The notes below the pieces were generated by a model. It saw only the letters and a program-made list of their open reading frames with translations. It did no database searches and was not told where the DNA came from. The position numbers and the translations under genes were made by a program. A stretch of DNA of 64,000 nucleotides from the IMG/VR virus record IMGVR_UViG_3300030339_000005; one strand, given 5' to 3'. Origin of the DNA: a virus (Duplodnaviria; Heunggongvirae; Uroviricota; Caudoviricetes). Below are positions 43,461-64,000 of this stretch, one piece after another (the stretch's first letter is position 1; every line of letters starts with the position of its first letter).

Positions 43461-43709
43461 AACTATACTTATACTATACTTACTAAAACTATACATAATG
43501 ACCTCCGGCCCAAAAAAATCTTGGCAGCCATCCATTTTAGAAAGAAAGAAAGTTGGGATAACCATGATGTGCATAAATTTTTAAAAAAATTTTTTATATT
43601 TTTTCTGAGAACGAGTGGCCTGTTTCCCCATTTACCCCCTGCCTCAAAGGGCGAGAAACCGTGTTCGAATCCCAAAATCCAATTTTCAAAATCTAAAAAA
43701 TTAAGCGTC

Positions 43710-44207
43710 ATGGCTGAAATTAAAGTTTTCACAAAAGAAGAACTCAAAGGCTACGCCAATGGTTCGACCAAAAACATGGGCAAGGTCACTTTGCCGAGTG
43801 GTAAGTATCGGGTTGAAAGACTTGAACTCCGTGAACAAATGATTAAAGGTGCAGATGGCACCGAAGACAACCGTAAATGGGTTGATGTTCATTTGTCAGG
43901 TGTTGCCAAGTCAGGTGTCATCAGTGGTTCACGTTTTGCTACAGCAGGATTCGCCAAAGAACCCGTCAAAGGGAACACATCAGGCAATTATTACTTCCCG
44001 TCAGTTGCCATTGGTAGCTGTTACGAAGGTGATTTGGCTGACATGTTGGTGGACATCCAAGGCAAAGACATTGAAATTGTCATTGTTGAAGGCAACACTC
44101 CGAAGTTTACATTGAAGTCTTGGAAGACCAAAGAAGAAGCAAAAACAGCTTCTGCTGCTGGTTGGAATGCCAAACAATTTATGCGTGTTTCAAAGATTCA
44201 CGCCTAA
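43710..44207 (+). CDS. hypothetical protein, 165 aa
   Basis: ATG at 43710 (MAEIKVFTKEEL...) in frame of ORF 43452-44207; upstream part looks noncoding. Confidence 0.5.
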   Translation: MAEIKVFTKEELKGYANGSTKNMGKVTLPSGKYRVERLELREQMIKGADGTEDNRKWVDVHLSGVAKSGVISGSRFATAGFAKEPVKGNTSGNYYFPSVAIGSCYEGDLADMLVDIQGKDIEIVIVEGNTPKFTLKSWKTKEEAKTASAAGWNAKQFMRVSKIHA

Positions 44208-44286
44208 AATTTGGGCATTAAGAGGATACACCCTTCGGGGTGTATCTCTCTCTTAAAAAATAGTATATTCACTAAAGCTTATTAGT

Positions 44287-44493
44287 ATGATCACAGTGCT
44301 TGGCACATTTGGTGATTACAATATTCTCAAAGGCGATGATGGACAAGAATATAATGCTTATCCATATGCTCTTGATGCGGATAGAGTTAGTCACAAGCAT
44401 GGGTTCTTCCTTTTAAATAAGAAGAATTTTGCAGATGGTACAGAGGGGTATGTAATCACAAACTACCTTGTTGACGAAGATAACAACCAATAG
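44287..44493 (+). CDS. hypothetical protein, 68 aa
   Basis: ORF track. Confidence 0.35.
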   Translation: MITVLGTFGDYNILKGDDGQEYNAYPYALDADRVSHKHGFFLLNKKNFADGTEGYVITNYLVDEDNNQ

Positions 44494-44798
44494 ATAATTT
44501 TATCAATTTTGGTTGAGTGTTAAAAGAGTAAGTGGTCTAGCAATCCTTATTCTACACTCACCAAAAATTGTATAATCACAAGCTCTCATTTTCAACCCAA
44601 TAAAATTCGCTATATCATAATGAACACAAATGATTGGATGGTTGCCATATAATAACTGATTAAAAGTTTGTCAGTATAATCTAAAAAGAATCGCAAGGCT
44701 AGTGCTATGTTTGAAACAACATAAGCAGCTCAACTTGAAAACTCAGCATAACTGAGTGCAAAGTAAAAATATTATCAACCAACTTAAACTCAGCTAAA

Positions 44799-45239
44799 GT
44801 GAAAGTACAATCAACAATCGGTGAAGGCCTATTAGGTCAGACCATATCTTTGAACATTCAAGAAATGATTATTTTGGCAGATTTGCTTCAAGTATTTGAT
44901 GCAAGGATCTCAAAAGAATCTGATCTTGCTTTCCATAACGTCTCAGCCTTCTTGCACAAAGCTCTTGGCAATGATGTCAAAACTTTGGATCAAACAACGG
45001 AAGAAATGTTTGGTAATGCCATTCAGTTCTCATACAACCAGAAAATCAAGTGTTTGGCCAATCGTTATCAAAGCAAATCATCCCTGTTGGCCAGAGTAGA
45101 ATCTACCTTTGGCAAGGATGCAATTTTCGAAAAAGAAGAAGCTCTTAACGGAATGATGTATGTCTCTTATCAAAAGAGTAAAGATGAGCTTGAATACAGA
45201 TTCTGTGCTTGTTATCCTATTCCTCCTGTTGAAAAATAG
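44799..45239 (+). CDS. hypothetical protein, 146 aa
   Basis: ORF track. Confidence 0.45.
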   Translation: MKVQSTIGEGLLGQTISLNIQEMIILADLLQVFDARISKESDLAFHNVSAFLHKALGNDVKTLDQTTEEMFGNAIQFSYNQKIKCLANRYQSKSSLLARVESTFGKDAIFEKEEALNGMMYVSYQKSKDELEYRFCACYPIPPVEK

Positions 45240-45241
45240 CC

Positions 45242-45583
45242 ATGGAATCAGATACAAAAGATATCATGCTTGTATTAGGGAGACTCAACGCCGTTGTGCC
45301 TGAGTCTACCCTACAAGCAATTCAAGATGGAAAGCCTCTTATCATTTTTATAGACGATGAAGTAGCATTTAATAATACTGATTTGTCTGATGAAGACGCT
45401 CTTGCATTAAGAAAGATCACAGAGCAACCAGCTCTTGCACCCATAGTGAGAAGAACTTTATCAACTCACAGAATGGAACCTCTTGAGATGCCTCCATTGT
45501 ATGATGTATCTCATGATAATTTTCGTGAGCTTCAGCCTTGGCAAAAGCATGGTAAACACTGTAAACGTGGAAGATCTTACTAA
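45242..45583 (+). CDS. hypothetical protein, 113 aa
   Basis: ORF track; 2-nt spacing from previous gene. Confidence 0.45.
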   Translation: MESDTKDIMLVLGRLNAVVPESTLQAIQDGKPLIIFIDDEVAFNNTDLSDEDALALRKITEQPALAPIVRRTLSTHRMEPLEMPPLYDVSHDNFRELQPWQKHGKHCKRGRSY

Positions 45584-45788
45584 GCCTCTTAGCACACTCT
45601 TTACTCCATTAGAAGTTGAGAGTTGTGAGATGCATACTTACGTTAGTAAAGTTGATGCTTATAATTATGCGCACAAGTGTATTCCTCATGGTATGAACCT
45701 TCAAAAGATTGAAGCCATAGGACACACCACATACTACTTATTTGGTAACAATGACTGCAAATGCTATTGTTGTCTTATCGATAAGTGA
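45483..45788 (+). CDS. hypothetical Cys-rich small protein; true start probably downstream of the overlap
   Basis: ORF track; overlaps previous ORF by 100 nt. Confidence 0.3.
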   Translation: MRCLHCMMYLMIIFVSFSLGKSMVNTVNVEDLTKPLSTLFTPLEVESCEMHTYVSKVDAYNYAHKCIPHGMNLQKIEAIGHTTYYLFGNNDCKCYCCLIDK

Positions 45789-46011
45789 TCTCGTTTGAAC
45801 GCACGGAAACGTTATAACGAGAGTCTGCTTCCCCATGACTGGCAGGCAACAATGATAGATGAGTGTATCGACTCAACGGCACATTTCCGAAAACATAAAC
45901 ATTTTCTTACCTCAATATCTATTTGTACATTTGAACGATGAACAAAAGGGCCACTCATCGCGTTGTGAAACGCGGTGAGTTTTCCAATTCACTAAACAAT
46001 AATACTCTACA

Positions 46012-62672: not shown

Positions 62673-62691
62673 TAAGCTTCAAAATAAAAAA

Positions 62692-62726
62692 GGAGAAACT
62701 GTCGAAAGATAGTTTCTCCCTTTCAT
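62692..62726 (+). terminator. rho-independent terminator after flotillin-like gene
   Basis: GGAGAAACT-10 nt-AGTTTCTCC hairpin followed by CTTTCAT. Confidence 0.45.
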
Positions 62727-62900
62727 AAGCTCAGAGACAGCAAAACCAAATCAAAACTACAAAAAATCCAATTTAATTTTTAAGTAAAAAGATCTGAGCT
62801 GTTTCCAACCTCTCCCTATATTCTGAAAGCGTCCGAATCACCACTATTCGATAACTATTGCAAGAAGCCAATCTTTTCAAGAGAGGGCGCAAATGTTTCA

Positions 62901-63119
62901 TTGATGAAGTACGGTGTATTACTGGAAGAAGCAGGAGGCGAGTATGGAGAAGAAGGCTTTATCTATCAAGAACTGGTAGAGATTGAGCCGTACGACGAAA
63001 TGTATCCCGTACTAGGATCATGGGTTATTGGAGGAGAATCATGTGGCATTGGTATTAGAGAGACATTCTCTCGAATTACTAATAACATGTCATATTTTGT
63101 TCCTCATGTTATTGAATAA
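62901..63119 (+). CDS. hypothetical protein, 72 aa
   Basis: ORF track. Confidence 0.35.
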   Translation: MMKYGVLLEEAGGEYGEEGFIYQELVEIEPYDEMYPVLGSWVIGGESCGIGIRETFSRITNNMSYFVPHVIE

Positions 63120-63124
63120 AAGCG

Positions 63125-63158
63125 GGGGCCCTGAAAGCGGGCCCAAATTTTTACTAAT
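63125..63158 (+). terminator. GC-rich hairpin (GGGCCC...GGGCCC) plus A/T run; possible terminator
   Basis: GCGGGGGCCCTGAAAGCGGGCCCAAATTTTTAC directly after the TAA of 62901-63119. Confidence 0.35.
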
Positions 63159-63181
63159 AACTTTTTAAGACGGCGTGTGAA

Positions 63182-63607
63182 ATGCATATTTTTATACCGT
63201 ATATTCCTAATGAGCAACCAACTATGACAAGACAAGAACAACTTTTGATTAAAAGTGTGGCAGATCAGTTAGAGAAAAGTACTCGTACTGATTGGACACA
63301 AGGCGACTTAAGTGCTTGGTCTGCTTGGGCATATCGTATGCGTGATACTATTCGTAGTACTATGCCTACACTGCAGACCTTGATCTCTGATCAATATCAA
63401 GCAGCTCATCCTACCCCTTCTCCTGATTATCTATTAGCCGCAAGAGCACAAGCTCAAACTCAAGCAGACCTTGAAAGAGCTCGAGGTAATATTCAGATTC
63501 CTCGACAGATTCCTCCTAATTATGGAGTTATTCCTGACGCATACACCAAAGATCCTACACAGGTTGAAATGGTGCCAAGAAAGAGACCTACACTTGAAGA
63601 TCTCTAA
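63182..63607 (+). CDS. hypothetical protein, 141 aa
   Basis: ORF track. Confidence 0.4.
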   Translation: MHIFIPYIPNEQPTMTRQEQLLIKSVADQLEKSTRTDWTQGDLSAWSAWAYRMRDTIRSTMPTLQTLISDQYQAAHPTPSPDYLLAARAQAQTQADLERARGNIQIPRQIPPNYGVIPDAYTKDPTQVEMVPRKRPTLEDL

Positions 63608-64000
63608 AAAAATTAAAGCTCCTAACAGCAAATCCAAAGTAAATCTTTAATCCGCCCAGTGGGCAGAATAACTACAAACAAATGGAGCTTGATAAGAACA
63701 CATGCAGCAAATCCAAACCCAAAATTTAAATTTGTAAATTAAAACGAGATCTTAGTAACGCAAGATCGCTCTATGGCCGAGGCACAAGTGTGGAATTTCG
63801 GAGTGTTCTGTTTATTTTTTTTTACCTTAAATCATTTTTATATGATGACAGCTATTTTCTTTGGCATTGCCTTTGGTTTCCTTGCCTATGAGTTTTATAA
63901 ACTCTTTCATCTAAAGACAATTATTTATTTAAATCAAGTAATTAAGAGTGTGGCTAATGAGTTGCCGGACAAAGATAATTATAAAGAAGATATGAAGAGT

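What the first reader, a model, noticed from the sequence alone, without database searches (positions are those of the whole stretch)
43700..64000. Code switch: the right-hand module terminates genes with TGA (ATGA start/stop overlaps)
Plus-strand genes at 49692-50816 and 55815-57148 are chained by ATGA overlaps, where the TGA of one gene overlaps the ATG of the next. None of the ORFs in this half shows the same-frame-adjacent pattern. So TGA is a genuine terminator here but a sense codon in the late block. This fits early genes in host code and late genes in the recoded code. It implies the suppressor tRNA is expressed or licensed only late, a built-in timing or lysis control.
Basis: seen in the sequence. 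Interest (0 to 1): 0.6.

Follow-up and report, generated by a model that had tools for sequence, protein, structure and literature searches.

The report
Phage genome with two genetic codes
This is part of a 178-kb crAss-like phage whose virion genes read TGA as tryptophan while its plus-strand accessory and nucleotide-metabolism genes still use TGA as a stop; the split is real, but it is a layout already described for such phages.

Summary
In the plus-strand module (43.4-64 kb), 27 called genes hold 0 in-frame TGA against 53 TGG. Five genes end in TGA, and three junctions are ATGA overlaps (50009, 50317, 56657). For two TGA-terminated gene families, 102 and 43 homologues end at the same conserved C-terminus, so these TGAs are real gene ends.

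In the structural block (1-31.2 kb, minus strand) TGA is a sense codon, with 86 TGA against 29 TGG. It aligns with W, or with F/Y, in 120 terminase homologues.

A tRNA with a UCA anticodon lies at 37818-37913 (-), at the head of the leftward genes. Three related phages share this layout.

This is the block-wise TGA-to-Trp recoding already published for crAss-like and other phages (Yutin 2021; Borges 2021; Pfennig 2022), so it is a new member of a known kind.

- The codon-usage boundary is near 31.2 kb, not 43.7 kb.
- A TGA-poor zone lies in between.
- Two genes flanking the tRNA (34225-34545 minus, 38393-40204 plus) carry sense TGA.
- "tRNA expressed only late" and "lysis control" are not shown by the sequence.

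One unusual side detail: the suppressor tRNA carries a covarying extra arm.

The parts
1..31193 (-). Zone A, the structural/packaging gene block, in which TGA is a sense codon. It has 86 in-frame TGA against 29 TGG, stops are only TAA/TAG, and GC3 is 11.5%.
   Evidence: ORF coverage rises from 0.61 to 0.96 when TGA is read as sense.
29106..31193 (-). Large terminase gene with 8 in-frame TGA.
   Evidence: phrog_6681, E = 3e-63. It is 28-46% identical to crAss-like terminases. The TGA columns are W, with F/Y alternates, in 120 homologues.
26686..28908 (-). Portal gene with 6 in-frame TGA.
   Evidence: phrog_6547, E = 3e-50.
6073..18978 (-). Giant 4301-codon ORF with 39 in-frame TGA, probably a tail or adhesin protein. 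Full-length product requires very efficient TGA decoding.
   Evidence: The repeat content was judged by eye only.
31196..37657 (-). Zone B, left part. It holds TGA-poor genes between the tRNA and the terminase: PhoH 36965-37657, PD-(D/E)XK nuclease 35159-36091, a PG_binding_1 protein 31825-33387, and others. GC is low (GC3 18%).
34225..34545 (-). Small conserved gene with a sense TGA at 34372-34374 and a TGA-TAA tandem at its end. It is the exception inside zone B.
   Evidence: tblastn to three relatives gives 44-53% identity over codons 17-106.
37718..37742 (-). Terminator-like G+C-rich hairpin (11 pairs plus a T-run) directly downstream of the tRNA.
   Evidence: Best terminator-like hit in 30.8-44 kb: 13 hits found against 4.7 expected.
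37818..37913 (-). Opal-suppressor tRNA with anticodon UCA. It has a Trp-like anticodon arm, G73 and an encoded CCA, and also an extra arm with a 6-bp stem and an atypical D-arm. It lies at the 5' end of the leftward genes.
   Evidence: ARAGORN. Rfam tRNA-Sec scores 38 bits, below the gathering score of 47. Homologous tRNA(UCA) genes occupy the same position in L038, L039 and L040.
38393..40204 (+). Plus-strand gene of 603 codons with two sense TGA (38765-38767, 39440-39442) and no TGG. It contains an HExxH motif; its function is unknown.
   Evidence: Under code 11 it appears as three same-frame ORFs. The chance of 603 codons free of TAA/TAG is about 1e-16, and the other two frames hold 45 and 64 such stops. 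No family or homologue hits.
40454..43212 (-). Zone B, right part. This TGA-free leftward unit includes the replication-initiator-like gene 42445-43212 (HTH_36 + DnaD_N).
   Evidence: The cumulative GC-skew minimum lies at about 43-44 kb.
43452..63607 (+). Zone C, the right-hand module of the finding. It has 0 in-frame TGA against 53 TGG in 4961 codons. Stops are TAA 19, TAG 3, TGA 5, and GC3 is 31.6%. It encodes an AAA/MoxR-like ATPase (54557-55864), a DUF2828/TROVE-like protein (58305-60047) and an SPFH protein (60345-62672).
   Evidence: The same pattern continues to about 70 kb in L002 (0 TGA, 14 TGG).
49713..50012 (+). TGA-terminated gene. Its stop overlaps the next gene's ATG (ATGA at 50009-50012).
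   Evidence: It is a paralogue of 50009-50320.
50009..50320 (+). TGA-terminated gene whose stop overlaps the next ATG (ATGA at 50317-50320). The TGA sits at the conserved family C-terminus, ...PRxxWLxKQIxKL.
   Evidence: 43 homologues; most end within 0-3 residues of this point.
50541..50816 (+). TGA-terminated gene. The next in-frame TAA/TAG follows 6 codons later.
   Evidence: Not tested by homology.
51659..51940 (+). TGA-terminated ORF with a TTG start. Its status as a gene is the least certain of the five.
   Evidence: Public gene call mapped from L002.
55824..56660 (+). TGA-terminated gene (278 aa) downstream of the AAA ATPase. Its stop overlaps the next gene's ATG (ATGA at 56657-56660).
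   Evidence: 102 homologues (40-70% identity) end within 0-5 residues of the TGA. Orthologues end in TAA in L007 and L008, and in an ATGA overlap in L009.

Best explanation
The window is about one third of a 178-kb crAss-like phage genome that uses two reading conventions for TGA.

Shown:
- In the structural/packaging block (1-31.2 kb, minus strand) TGA encodes tryptophan and makes up 75% of Trp codons.
- In the plus-strand module (43.4-64 kb and beyond) TGA is never in frame and ends 5 of 27 genes. Three of those ends are ATGA stop/start overlaps.
- Between them lies a TGA-poor zone. It holds a phage-encoded Trp-type tRNA with a UCA anticodon, flanked by two genes that carry sense TGA.
- Three diverged relatives share the order: tRNA, then TGA-free genes, then TGA-rich virion genes.

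Inferred, from the published model for such phages:
- The host uses the standard code. Genes without sense TGA can therefore be translated on arrival.
- Once the suppressor tRNA accumulates and is charged by a tryptophanyl-tRNA synthetase, it outcompetes release factor 2, and the TGA-bearing virion genes become translatable. This couples late-protein synthesis to tRNA supply.
- Readthrough of the few TGA stops in the right-hand module would add only 3-11 residues at four of them and 42 at the fifth. That block therefore tolerates either code ("dual-coded").
For: - Code-4 translation restores long ORFs only on the left.
- Terminase and portal are identified only after recoding.
- All 8 TGA columns in the terminase are W in most of the 120 homologues, with F or Y as the main alternates, so an aromatic residue is expected there.
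- Codon counts by zone: A 86 TGA/29 TGG; B 2/16; C 0/53. Fisher p = 6e-23 for A vs C, and 3e-7 for A vs B. Zone B is as AT-rich as zone A, so its avoidance of TGA is not a composition effect.
- TGA stops in C fall at conserved C-termini in two families. Orthologues end with TAA or an ATGA overlap at the same place.
- The share of TGA stops in C (5/27) matches that in the homologous module of other phages, where TGA is likewise never in frame (7/39, 3/21, 0/28). TGA stops are therefore not depleted.
- tRNA(UCA) was found by ARAGORN and weakly by Rfam. Homologous suppressors occupy the same position in three relatives, and two of them are canonical 73-74-nt Trp-like tRNAs.
- The relatives show the same gradient of TGA use.
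- The genome was assembled independently many times at 178.28-178.35 kb.
- Literature: recoding confined mostly to late genes (PMC7886860); a dual-coded early block and a suppressor tRNA at the 5' end of the recoded strand (bioRxiv 10.1101/2022.06.29.495998); the temporal model (bioRxiv 10.1101/2021.08.26.457843).
Against: - No expression data exist, so "early" and "late" are assigned from gene content only.
- The host and its genetic code are unknown.
- The tRNA has an unusual shape and fails Rfam gathering scores. Its charging with Trp is inferred.
- 39 sense TGA in one 4301-codon ORF would need near-complete suppression of release factor 2. No release-factor, synthetase or anti-RF2 gene was seen in the 70 kb examined, and the other roughly 108 kb were not read.
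- The lysis-like candidate gene has no TGA.
- The modules differ strongly in GC3 (11.5% vs 31.6%). This could reflect separate origins rather than a regulatory design.
- An upstream extension of the AAA gene through two TGA (54386-54556) cannot be excluded, though it is not conserved.
Confidence: 0.8

Rival explanations
1. Soft switch. The suppressor tRNA is made from the start of infection or constitutively, with no timed licensing. The right-hand and middle genes tolerate it because most end in TAA/TAG and the TGA-terminated ones run into a TAA/TAG shortly after. Recoding then serves another purpose, for example drift under AT pressure or damage to host proteins by readthrough, rather than timing.
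For: - The tRNA lies in a divergent intergenic region at the head of the leftward genes and has its own terminator-like hairpin, so it looks like a separate small unit.
- TGA-bearing genes flank it on both strands.
- Readthrough extensions are 3-11 codons for four of the five TGA stops.
- The "dual-coded block" and "soft switch" have been proposed in the literature.
- GC3 of 11.5% in zone A fits TGG-to-TGA drift under AT pressure (the Borges argument).
Against: - TGA stops in zone C are not depleted relative to the homologous module of other phages.
- Distances to the next TAA/TAG are no shorter after TGA stops than after TAA/TAG stops, so there is no sign of selection for backup stops.
- Constant readthrough would disturb three ATGA termination-reinitiation junctions.
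- Zone B avoids TGA despite being AT-rich, which points to selection for translatability without the tRNA.
Confidence: 0.3
2. Historical mosaic. The right-hand module was acquired by recombination from a standard-code phage of higher GC. The code difference is an accident of ancestry and not a functional design.
For: - GC3 is 31.6% in C against 11.5% in A.
- The best GenBank phage match of the DUF2828 protein is a Leptolyngbya phage at 45.5% identity, and no crAss-like record matches it.
- The same AAA + 278-aa gene pair occurs in other phages with different neighbours.
Against: - Zone B has the same low GC as zone A and yet avoids TGA.
- The order tRNA, then TGA-free genes, then TGA-rich genes is conserved in three relatives with 63-71% terminase identity.
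- The block pattern recurs across many independent recoded phage lineages.
- Mosaic origin and functional partition are not mutually exclusive.
Confidence: 0.15
3. Uniform code 4. The phage and its host read TGA as Trp everywhere. The right module simply prefers TGG, and its "TGA stops" are sense codons followed soon by the true stops.
For: - Some public pipelines called the whole contig with code 4 (L001 and L003 gene models).
- Code-4 extensions are short.
- 39 sense TGA in one ORF would be easier to translate in a host without release factor 2.
Against: - 0 of 53 Trp codons are TGA in C (0 of 67 with the extension), and 2 of 18 in the AT-rich zone B, against 75% in A.
- Two TGA-terminated families end at conserved C-termini, where orthologues have TAA.
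- There are three ATGA junctions.
- The phage carries its own suppressor tRNA.
- crAss-like phages are reported to infect Bacteroidetes, and recoded phages to infect standard-code hosts.
Confidence: 0.03
4. Selenocysteine system. ARAGORN labels the tRNA as tRNA-SeC, so the in-frame TGAs would be Sec codons.
For: The ARAGORN label. The best Rfam family is tRNA-Sec at 38 bits. The tRNA has a long extra arm and a short D-loop.
Against: - The score is below the Rfam gathering score of 47.
- There are 86 or more sense TGA in ordinary virion proteins, at Trp/Phe/Tyr columns.
- The homologous suppressors in two relatives are ordinary 73-74-nt Trp-like tRNAs.
- The acceptor and T stems are 7/5, not 8/5.
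Confidence: 0.01

Closest known systems
TGA-recoded crAss-like phages (Crassvirales; Beta, Delta and Zeta groups of Yutin et al. 2021, PMC7886860; Lera phage, PMC12386605)
   Same: - crAss-type terminase and portal.
- Genome of about 178 kb, within the 145-192 kb range reported for the large-genome crAss-like family.
- Inteins and homing endonucleases in relatives.
- TGA read as Trp, mainly in structural genes.
- A phage-encoded tRNA(UCA).
- Recoding limited to part of the genome.
   Different: - Only 28-46% terminase identity to any GenBank phage record, and no nucleotide match for the right module.
- No relative of the right-module 278-aa protein was found in the IMG/VR viral-contig collection.
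- Group membership was not tested phylogenetically.
- The suppressor tRNA has an extra arm.
- The lysis-like candidate gene is not recoded, whereas the Lera holin and three of its four lysin genes are.
Block-wise "multiple genetic code" genomes described with Mgcod (Pfennig, Lomsadze, Borodovsky; bioRxiv 10.1101/2022.06.29.495998)
   Same: - One block is distinctly code 4.
- The other block is "dual-coded", giving nearly identical proteins under either code.
- The suppressor tRNA lies at the 5' end of the strand carrying recoded genes (here).
   Different: Here the change in TGA use lies 6-12 kb away from the strand switches, not at them. The transition is graded, with sporadic TGA genes on both sides of the tRNA. 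Mgcod itself was not run.
Model of stop-codon recoding as a regulator of late and lytic genes (Borges et al., bioRxiv 10.1101/2021.08.26.457843; Ivanova et al. 2014)
   Same: - Structural genes are recoded, while the replication-type genes seen here (replication initiator, PhoH, nuclease) and the nucleotide-metabolism genes are in standard code.
- Low GC accompanies recoding.
- A suppressor tRNA is present.
   Different: No code-change operon (tryptophanyl-tRNA synthetase, RF1) was seen in the roughly 70 kb read. No evidence was found that lysis genes are preferentially recoded. TGA stops are not depleted in the standard-code block (5/27), unlike the 2.7% reported for one standard-code Agate relative.
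Genomes that use code 4 throughout (for example Mollicutes)
   Same: TGA = Trp, and TGA is the majority Trp codon in an AT-rich context (75% here; 80-90% is quoted for code-4 genomes).
   Different: In those genomes TGA is never a terminator. Here it ends five genes at conserved C-termini, and one third of the window avoids it as a sense codon.

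Membership tests
Block-wise TGA-recoded phage genome (code 4 late block plus standard or dual-coded block) | Conserved late genes (terminase, portal) are interrupted by TGA under code 11 and restored to full length when TGA is read as sense | tested here: met
   The terminase has 8 TGA and the portal 6. Full-length matches are obtained only after recoding.
Block-wise TGA-recoded phage genome (code 4 late block plus standard or dual-coded block) | TGA positions correspond to tryptophan in homologues | tested here: met
   All 8 terminase TGA columns are mostly W, with F/Y as the main alternates. 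Caveat: some homologues may themselves have been translated with code 4, but the F/Y alternates do not depend on that.
Block-wise TGA-recoded phage genome (code 4 late block plus standard or dual-coded block) | A contiguous block without sense TGA, in which TGA can act as a terminator | tested here: met
   There are 0 TGA against 53 TGG and 5 TGA stops. C-termini are conserved at the TGA in two families.
Block-wise TGA-recoded phage genome (code 4 late block plus standard or dual-coded block) | Phage-encoded suppressor tRNA with anticodon UCA, placed at the 5' end of the strand carrying recoded genes | tested here: met
   The same position is occupied in three relatives. The tRNA is below Rfam gathering scores.
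Block-wise TGA-recoded phage genome (code 4 late block plus standard or dual-coded block) | The code boundary coincides with a switch of coding strand | tested here: not met
   The boundary lies near 31.2 kb inside the minus-strand unit. The strand switches are at about 38.2, 40.3 and 43.5 kb. This is a usual correlate rather than a strict requirement.
Block-wise TGA-recoded phage genome (code 4 late block plus standard or dual-coded block) | The host uses the standard code | not testable with these tools
   No host link was obtained. This is inferred from TGA stops and TGA avoidance in zones B and C.
Block-wise TGA-recoded phage genome (code 4 late block plus standard or dual-coded block) | Standard-code genes are expressed early, recoded genes late, and the tRNA in between | not testable with these tools
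   There are no expression data. The sigma-70-type promoter scan was not above shuffles, and the Bacteroidetes-type motif was not enriched.
Crassvirales (crAss-like phages) | Terminase and portal homologous to crAss-like signature proteins | tested here: met
   Matches to phrog_6681 and phrog_6547. In tblastn, the identifiable hits among the 121 matching records are crAss-like phages of Bacteroides, Flavobacterium and Azobacteroides or uncultured human-gut phages, at 27-46% identity.
Crassvirales (crAss-like phages) | crAss-type major capsid protein, RNA polymerase subunits and other signature genes; phylogenetic placement inside the order | not tested
   No PHROG hit was found for the remaining structural ORFs at E <= 1e-3. 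No tree was built, and about 108 kb of the genome was not read.
Genome-wide code 4 | TGA is never used as a terminator | tested here: not met
Selenocysteine decoding (tRNA-Sec plus SECIS) | The tRNA reaches the tRNA-Sec model threshold with 8/5 acceptor and T stems, and TGA sites are few and correspond to Cys/Sec | tested here: not met
   The score is 38 bits against a gathering score of 47. The fold is 7/5. There are 86 or more TGA at W/F/Y columns.

The most novel reading that the evidence does not exclude
The code switch may be driven by a structurally remodelled Trp-type suppressor tRNA. In this phage and one relative (L040) the tRNA(UCA) has gained an extra arm with a 5-6 bp stem and a conserved GUCCAAA loop, supported by three compensatory pair changes. 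In this phage the D-arm is also atypical. Two other relatives keep a canonical 73-74-nt form.

If the extra arm changes who charges, modifies or cleaves the tRNA, or how well it competes with release factor 2, it would be a new class of natural suppressor. That could help explain how a 4301-codon ORF with 39 TGA gets translated in a standard-code host. It could also make the tRNA the true timing element. A further consequence would be late, C-terminally extended isoforms of the five TGA-terminated right-module proteins.
Probability: 0.15. Interest if true: 0.55.

Novelty: new member of a known kind. Interest (0 to 1): 0.3.

Why it matters
It matters mainly for annotation. Public pipelines called this same contig either entirely with code 4 or entirely with code 11, and each choice mis-annotates one part of the genome.

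The window is a clean, statistically strong example of block-wise TGA recoding in a roughly 178-kb crAss-like phage with no close GenBank relative. It has a conserved graded layout: suppressor tRNA, then TGA-free genes, then sporadic TGA genes, then TGA-rich virion genes.

It adds no new principle. The early/late two-code idea was published between 2014 and 2022. The unusual suppressor tRNA is the only element that might teach something new about how such switches are implemented.

Tried and rejected
- Megablast of 43.7-64 kb against GenBank phages found no match. tblastn of the 281-aa protein against phages found none. A search of IMG/VR viral contigs for relatives of the 278-aa protein also found none.
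- An exact-pattern scan for the tRNA anticodon arm in viral contigs gave 17 loci. Only one holds a tRNA(UCA); the rest are chance matches.
- PhoH-based related loci were only 32-45% identical and carried no tRNA.
- Rfam at gathering thresholds found nothing in the whole window.
- The homologue search for the 38393-40204 protein returned nothing, and neither did Pfam or PHROGs. Its reality therefore rests on ORF statistics.
- The sigma-70-type promoter scan gave 62 hits against 66 expected. The Bacteroidetes-type motif TTTG..TAnnTTTG gave 6 against 5.2, and TAnnTTTG gave 85 against 99. So no promoter-based timing argument is possible.
- The base after sense TGA codons shows no strong bias.
- Folding of the non-coding-looking stretches 46.7-47.6 kb and 48.9-49.5 kb gave only marginal z-scores of -1.5 and -2.1.
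- Host DNA, prophage boundary and chimeric assembly were rejected, because the same circularly permuted 178-kb contig recurs in many samples.
- Serine insertion, suggested by the long extra arm, was rejected because TGA sits at W/F/Y columns and the homologous tRNAs in relatives are Trp-like.

Full report
WHAT THE WINDOW IS

PHROG searches of code-4 translations identify a large terminase (29106-31193, minus strand; phrog_6681, E = 3e-63) and a portal protein (26686-28908, minus strand; phrog_6547, E = 3e-50). tblastn of the terminase against GenBank phages finds 121 records. The identifiable ones are crAss-like phages of Bacteroides, Flavobacterium and Azobacteroides or uncultured human-gut phages, at 27-46% identity.

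An exact-protein look-up shows that the window belongs to a genome of about 178.3 kb. That genome was assembled independently in many metagenomes (contigs of 178,281-178,348 bp) with different start points, so it is complete and circular or circularly permuted. The loci from that look-up are identical to the window apart from one homopolymer-length difference. The right-hand module is therefore phage DNA. It is not host DNA and not an assembly chimera.

CHECK OF THE OBSERVATION

The ATGA overlaps are present.
- 50009-50012 joins gene 49713-50012 to gene 50009-50320.
- 50317-50320 joins 50009-50320 to 50317-50538.
- 56657-56660 joins 55824-56660 to 56657-57148.

Across the 27 genes called in 43.4-64 kb (4961 codons) there is no in-frame TGA. 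There are 53 TGG codons and 388 TGA triplets in the other two frames. Stop codons are TAA 19, TAG 3 and TGA 5. The pattern continues for about 6 kb beyond the window, with 0 TGA and 14 TGG.

Translating this half with code 4 changes only gene ends. It adds 3-11 codons after four of the TGA stops and 42 after the fifth, or unconserved N-terminal extensions. No ORF shows the "same-frame-adjacent" pattern.

The structural block (1-31.2 kb) is the opposite. It holds 86 in-frame TGA and 29 TGG, and its genes end only in TAA or TAG. ORF coverage rises from 0.61 to 0.96 when TGA is read as sense. Fisher's exact test on Trp-codon choice between the two blocks gives p = 6e-23.

ARE THE RIGHT-HAND TGAs REAL TERMINATORS?

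- The 278-aa product of 55824-56660 has 102 homologues at 40-70% identity. All of them end within 0-5 residues of the position of the window's TGA, after the conserved motif ...KILKIG/A....
- In three related contigs the orthologue ends at that point with TAA (L007, L008) or with another ATGA overlap (L009).
- The 103-aa product of 50009-50320 has 43 homologues. Most end at or within 3 residues of the conserved C-terminal motif PRxxWLxKQIxKL, exactly where the window has TGA.
- TGA stops are not depleted. The 5 of 27 found here compare with 7/39, 3/21 and 0/28 in the homologous module of those three phages, where TGA is likewise never in frame.
- Distances to the next in-frame TAA/TAG are similar after TGA stops and after TAA/TAG stops. 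There is therefore no sign of selected backup stops.

WHAT TGA ENCODES ON THE LEFT

I put X at the 8 TGA positions of the terminase and aligned it with 120 homologues at 55-76% identity. Every TGA column is mostly W, and F or Y are the main alternates. Some homologues may have been translated with code 4 by their own pipelines. The F/Y alternates do not depend on that, and they point to an aromatic residue. The assignment is TGA = Trp (code 4), not Gly, Ser or Sec.

THE LAYOUT IS THREE ZONES, NOT TWO

The change in TGA use is not at 43.7 kb.

Zone B consists of the minus-strand genes from 31196 to 37657 and from 40454 to 43212. It includes a PG_binding_1 protein, a PD-(D/E)XK nuclease, PhoH and a replication-initiator-like protein. 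These genes have the low GC of the virion block (GC3 18% against 11.5%; zone C has 31.6%). They nevertheless use TGG for Trp, with 2 TGA against 16 TGG (Fisher p = 3e-7 against zone A). Avoidance of TGA is therefore not a by-product of composition.

The two exceptions flank the tRNA.
- A small gene at 34225-34545 (minus strand) is conserved in three relatives. It has a sense TGA at 34372-34374 and ends in a TGA-TAA tandem.
- A 603-codon plus-strand gene at 38393-40204 appears as three same-frame ORFs under code 11. It has two TGA, no TGG and no TAA/TAG. The chance of that is about 1e-16, and the other two frames hold 45 and 64 such stops.

THE SUPPRESSOR tRNA

ARAGORN finds a 96-nt tRNA with anticodon UCA at 37818-37913 (minus strand) and labels it "SeC". 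Rfam gives only a sub-threshold tRNA-Sec match, 38 bits against a gathering score of 47.

Its fold has a 7-bp acceptor stem and a 5-bp T stem. The anticodon loop is CUUCAAA (E. coli tRNA-Trp has CUCCAAA, from my own knowledge). It has G73 and an encoded CCA. It also has an extra arm with a 6-bp stem and a non-canonical D-arm.

It lies at the 5' end of the leftward genes, in the divergent intergenic region. The strongest terminator-like hairpin of the 30.8-44 kb region follows it directly (37742-37718).

Three relatives, with terminase identity of 63-71%, were fetched. Each carries a tRNA(UCA) at the equivalent position. Two of these are canonical 73-74-nt Trp-like tRNAs. The third (L040, 92 nt) has the same extra arm, with an identical GUCCAAA loop and three compensatory changes in the stem.

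All three relatives also show the same gradient. The tRNA comes first. TGA-free ribonucleotide reductase, PhoH and nuclease genes follow. Next come sporadic TGA codons in small genes, and finally the TGA-rich terminase, portal and tail genes. In L040, a divergent-strand LysM gene also carries sense TGA.

HOW IT MOST LIKELY WORKS

Shown: there are two conventions for TGA in one genome, a Trp assignment, a phage-encoded Trp-type UCA tRNA, and a conserved gene order.

Inferred from the published model (Ivanova 2014; Yutin 2021; Pfennig 2022; Borges 2021):
- The host uses the standard code.
- Genes without sense TGA are translatable on arrival.
- The tRNA accumulates, is charged with Trp and competes with release factor 2.
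- Only then can virion proteins be completed.

The right-hand block fits Pfennig's "dual-coded" description, because either code gives nearly the same proteins.

The claim that the tRNA is "licensed only late" is not supported. Its position suggests it is made ahead of the TGA-rich virion genes, and no promoter evidence could be obtained. The "lysis control" reading is also unsupported here, because the only lysis-like candidate has no TGA.

One open difficulty remains. The 4301-codon ORF has 39 TGA. That requires near-complete suppression, and no helper gene was seen in the roughly 70 kb read.

RIVALS

- A constitutive "soft switch" remains plausible for the timing question (0.3).
- A purely historical mosaic origin of the right module is suggested by the GC3 difference and by its distant homologues. 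It does not explain zone B or the conserved layout (0.15).
- Genome-wide code 4 is contradicted by the conserved C-termini at TGA, and selenocysteine decoding by the W/F/Y alignment.

COMPARISON WITH WHAT IS KNOWN, AND VERDICT

This is the block-wise opal recoding already described for crAss-like phages and for other phage clades. Published features include the confinement of recoding to late genes, the suppressor tRNA at the 5' end of the recoded strand, and the dual-coded early block.

The window adds a new and divergent member of this kind. It also adds some detail: a graded boundary that is offset from the strand switches, undepleted TGA stops, and a suppressor tRNA with a covarying extra arm.

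Novelty is "new member of a known kind", and interest is modest (0.3).

Noticed in passing
window 37818-37913 (-); L040 1693-1784; L038 711-783; L039 190-263: The opal-suppressor tRNA is Trp-like in its anticodon arm, discriminator base and T-arm. It nevertheless carries an extra (variable) arm with a 6-bp stem and a GUCCAAA loop, and an atypical D-arm. One relative shares the arm, with three compensatory pair changes. Two relatives have the canonical 73-74-nt form. ARAGORN mislabels all four as tRNA-SeC.
   Followed up: partly
window 48785-48882 (+) and 49525-49592 (+): Two degenerate tRNA-like elements lie in a stretch of about 1 kb without convincing ORFs (48.7-49.7 kb). One has normal acceptor, D and T arms but a 39-nt anticodon arm (fold z = -3.1; ARAGORN calls it "tRNA-Cys(aca)"). 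The other is a weak Rfam tRNA match (24.8 bits, below the gathering score of 29) with a shortened anticodon arm. A distantly related phage carrying the same AAA + 278-aa gene pair (L008) has 20 tRNA genes and a tmRNA about 5.5 kb downstream of that pair, so these may be remnants of a tRNA array.
   Followed up: partly
window 45600-47420 (+): A stretch of about 1.8 kb in the right module has only short ORFs, about 40% GC and no Rfam match. Folding of 46684-47600 is only marginally better than shuffles (z = -1.5). Its nature is unknown.
   Followed up: partly
window, whole (zones 1-31.2 kb, 31.2-43.2 kb, 43.4-64 kb): Third-position GC differs sharply between the modules of one genome: 11.5% in the virion block, 18% in the middle zone and 31.6% in the right-hand module. 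Total GC steps from about 29% to about 40% near 44 kb.
   Followed up: partly
window about 43200-43700: The cumulative GC-skew minimum coincides with a divergent intergenic region next to a replication-initiator-like gene (42445-43212, minus strand; HTH_36 + DnaD_N). This may be the replication origin, although the skew may simply follow the switch of coding strand.
   Followed up: no
window 6073-18978 (-): A single 4301-codon ORF with 39 sense TGA. By eye it is rich in leucine-rich (BspA-like) and fibre-like repeats, so it is probably a giant tail or adhesin protein. Relatives have ORFs of more than 2300 and more than 3900 residues at the same place (L038, L040).
   Followed up: no
window 38393-40204 (+): An orphan 603-aa protein with an HExxH motif (HEIEH) and two sense TGA. 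It is the only plus-strand gene between two minus-strand units. It has no Pfam, PHROG or homologue hits.
   Followed up: partly
window 61134-62423 (-): A 429-codon ORF runs antisense inside the SPFH/Band_7 gene (60345-62672, plus strand). It is most likely a shadow ORF.
   Followed up: no
L001-L006 (same genome, different samples): Public gene calls for this genome are inconsistent. Some samples were called with code 4 throughout (AAA gene 492 aa, next gene 287 aa) and others with code 11 (435 aa and 278 aa). Every deposited annotation is therefore wrong in one module.
   Followed up: yes
window 54557-57148 (+); L007, L008, L009 around 8300-11450: The AAA/MoxR-like ATPase, the 278-aa protein and a downstream protein (acidic in the window) form a conserved gene trio. 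It is found in many otherwise different phage contigs, and the 278-aa protein has over 100 homologues. In L009 the ATPase is split by an inserted gene with a faint NUMOD1 (homing-endonuclease-type) Pfam hit. The trio's function is unknown.
   Followed up: partly
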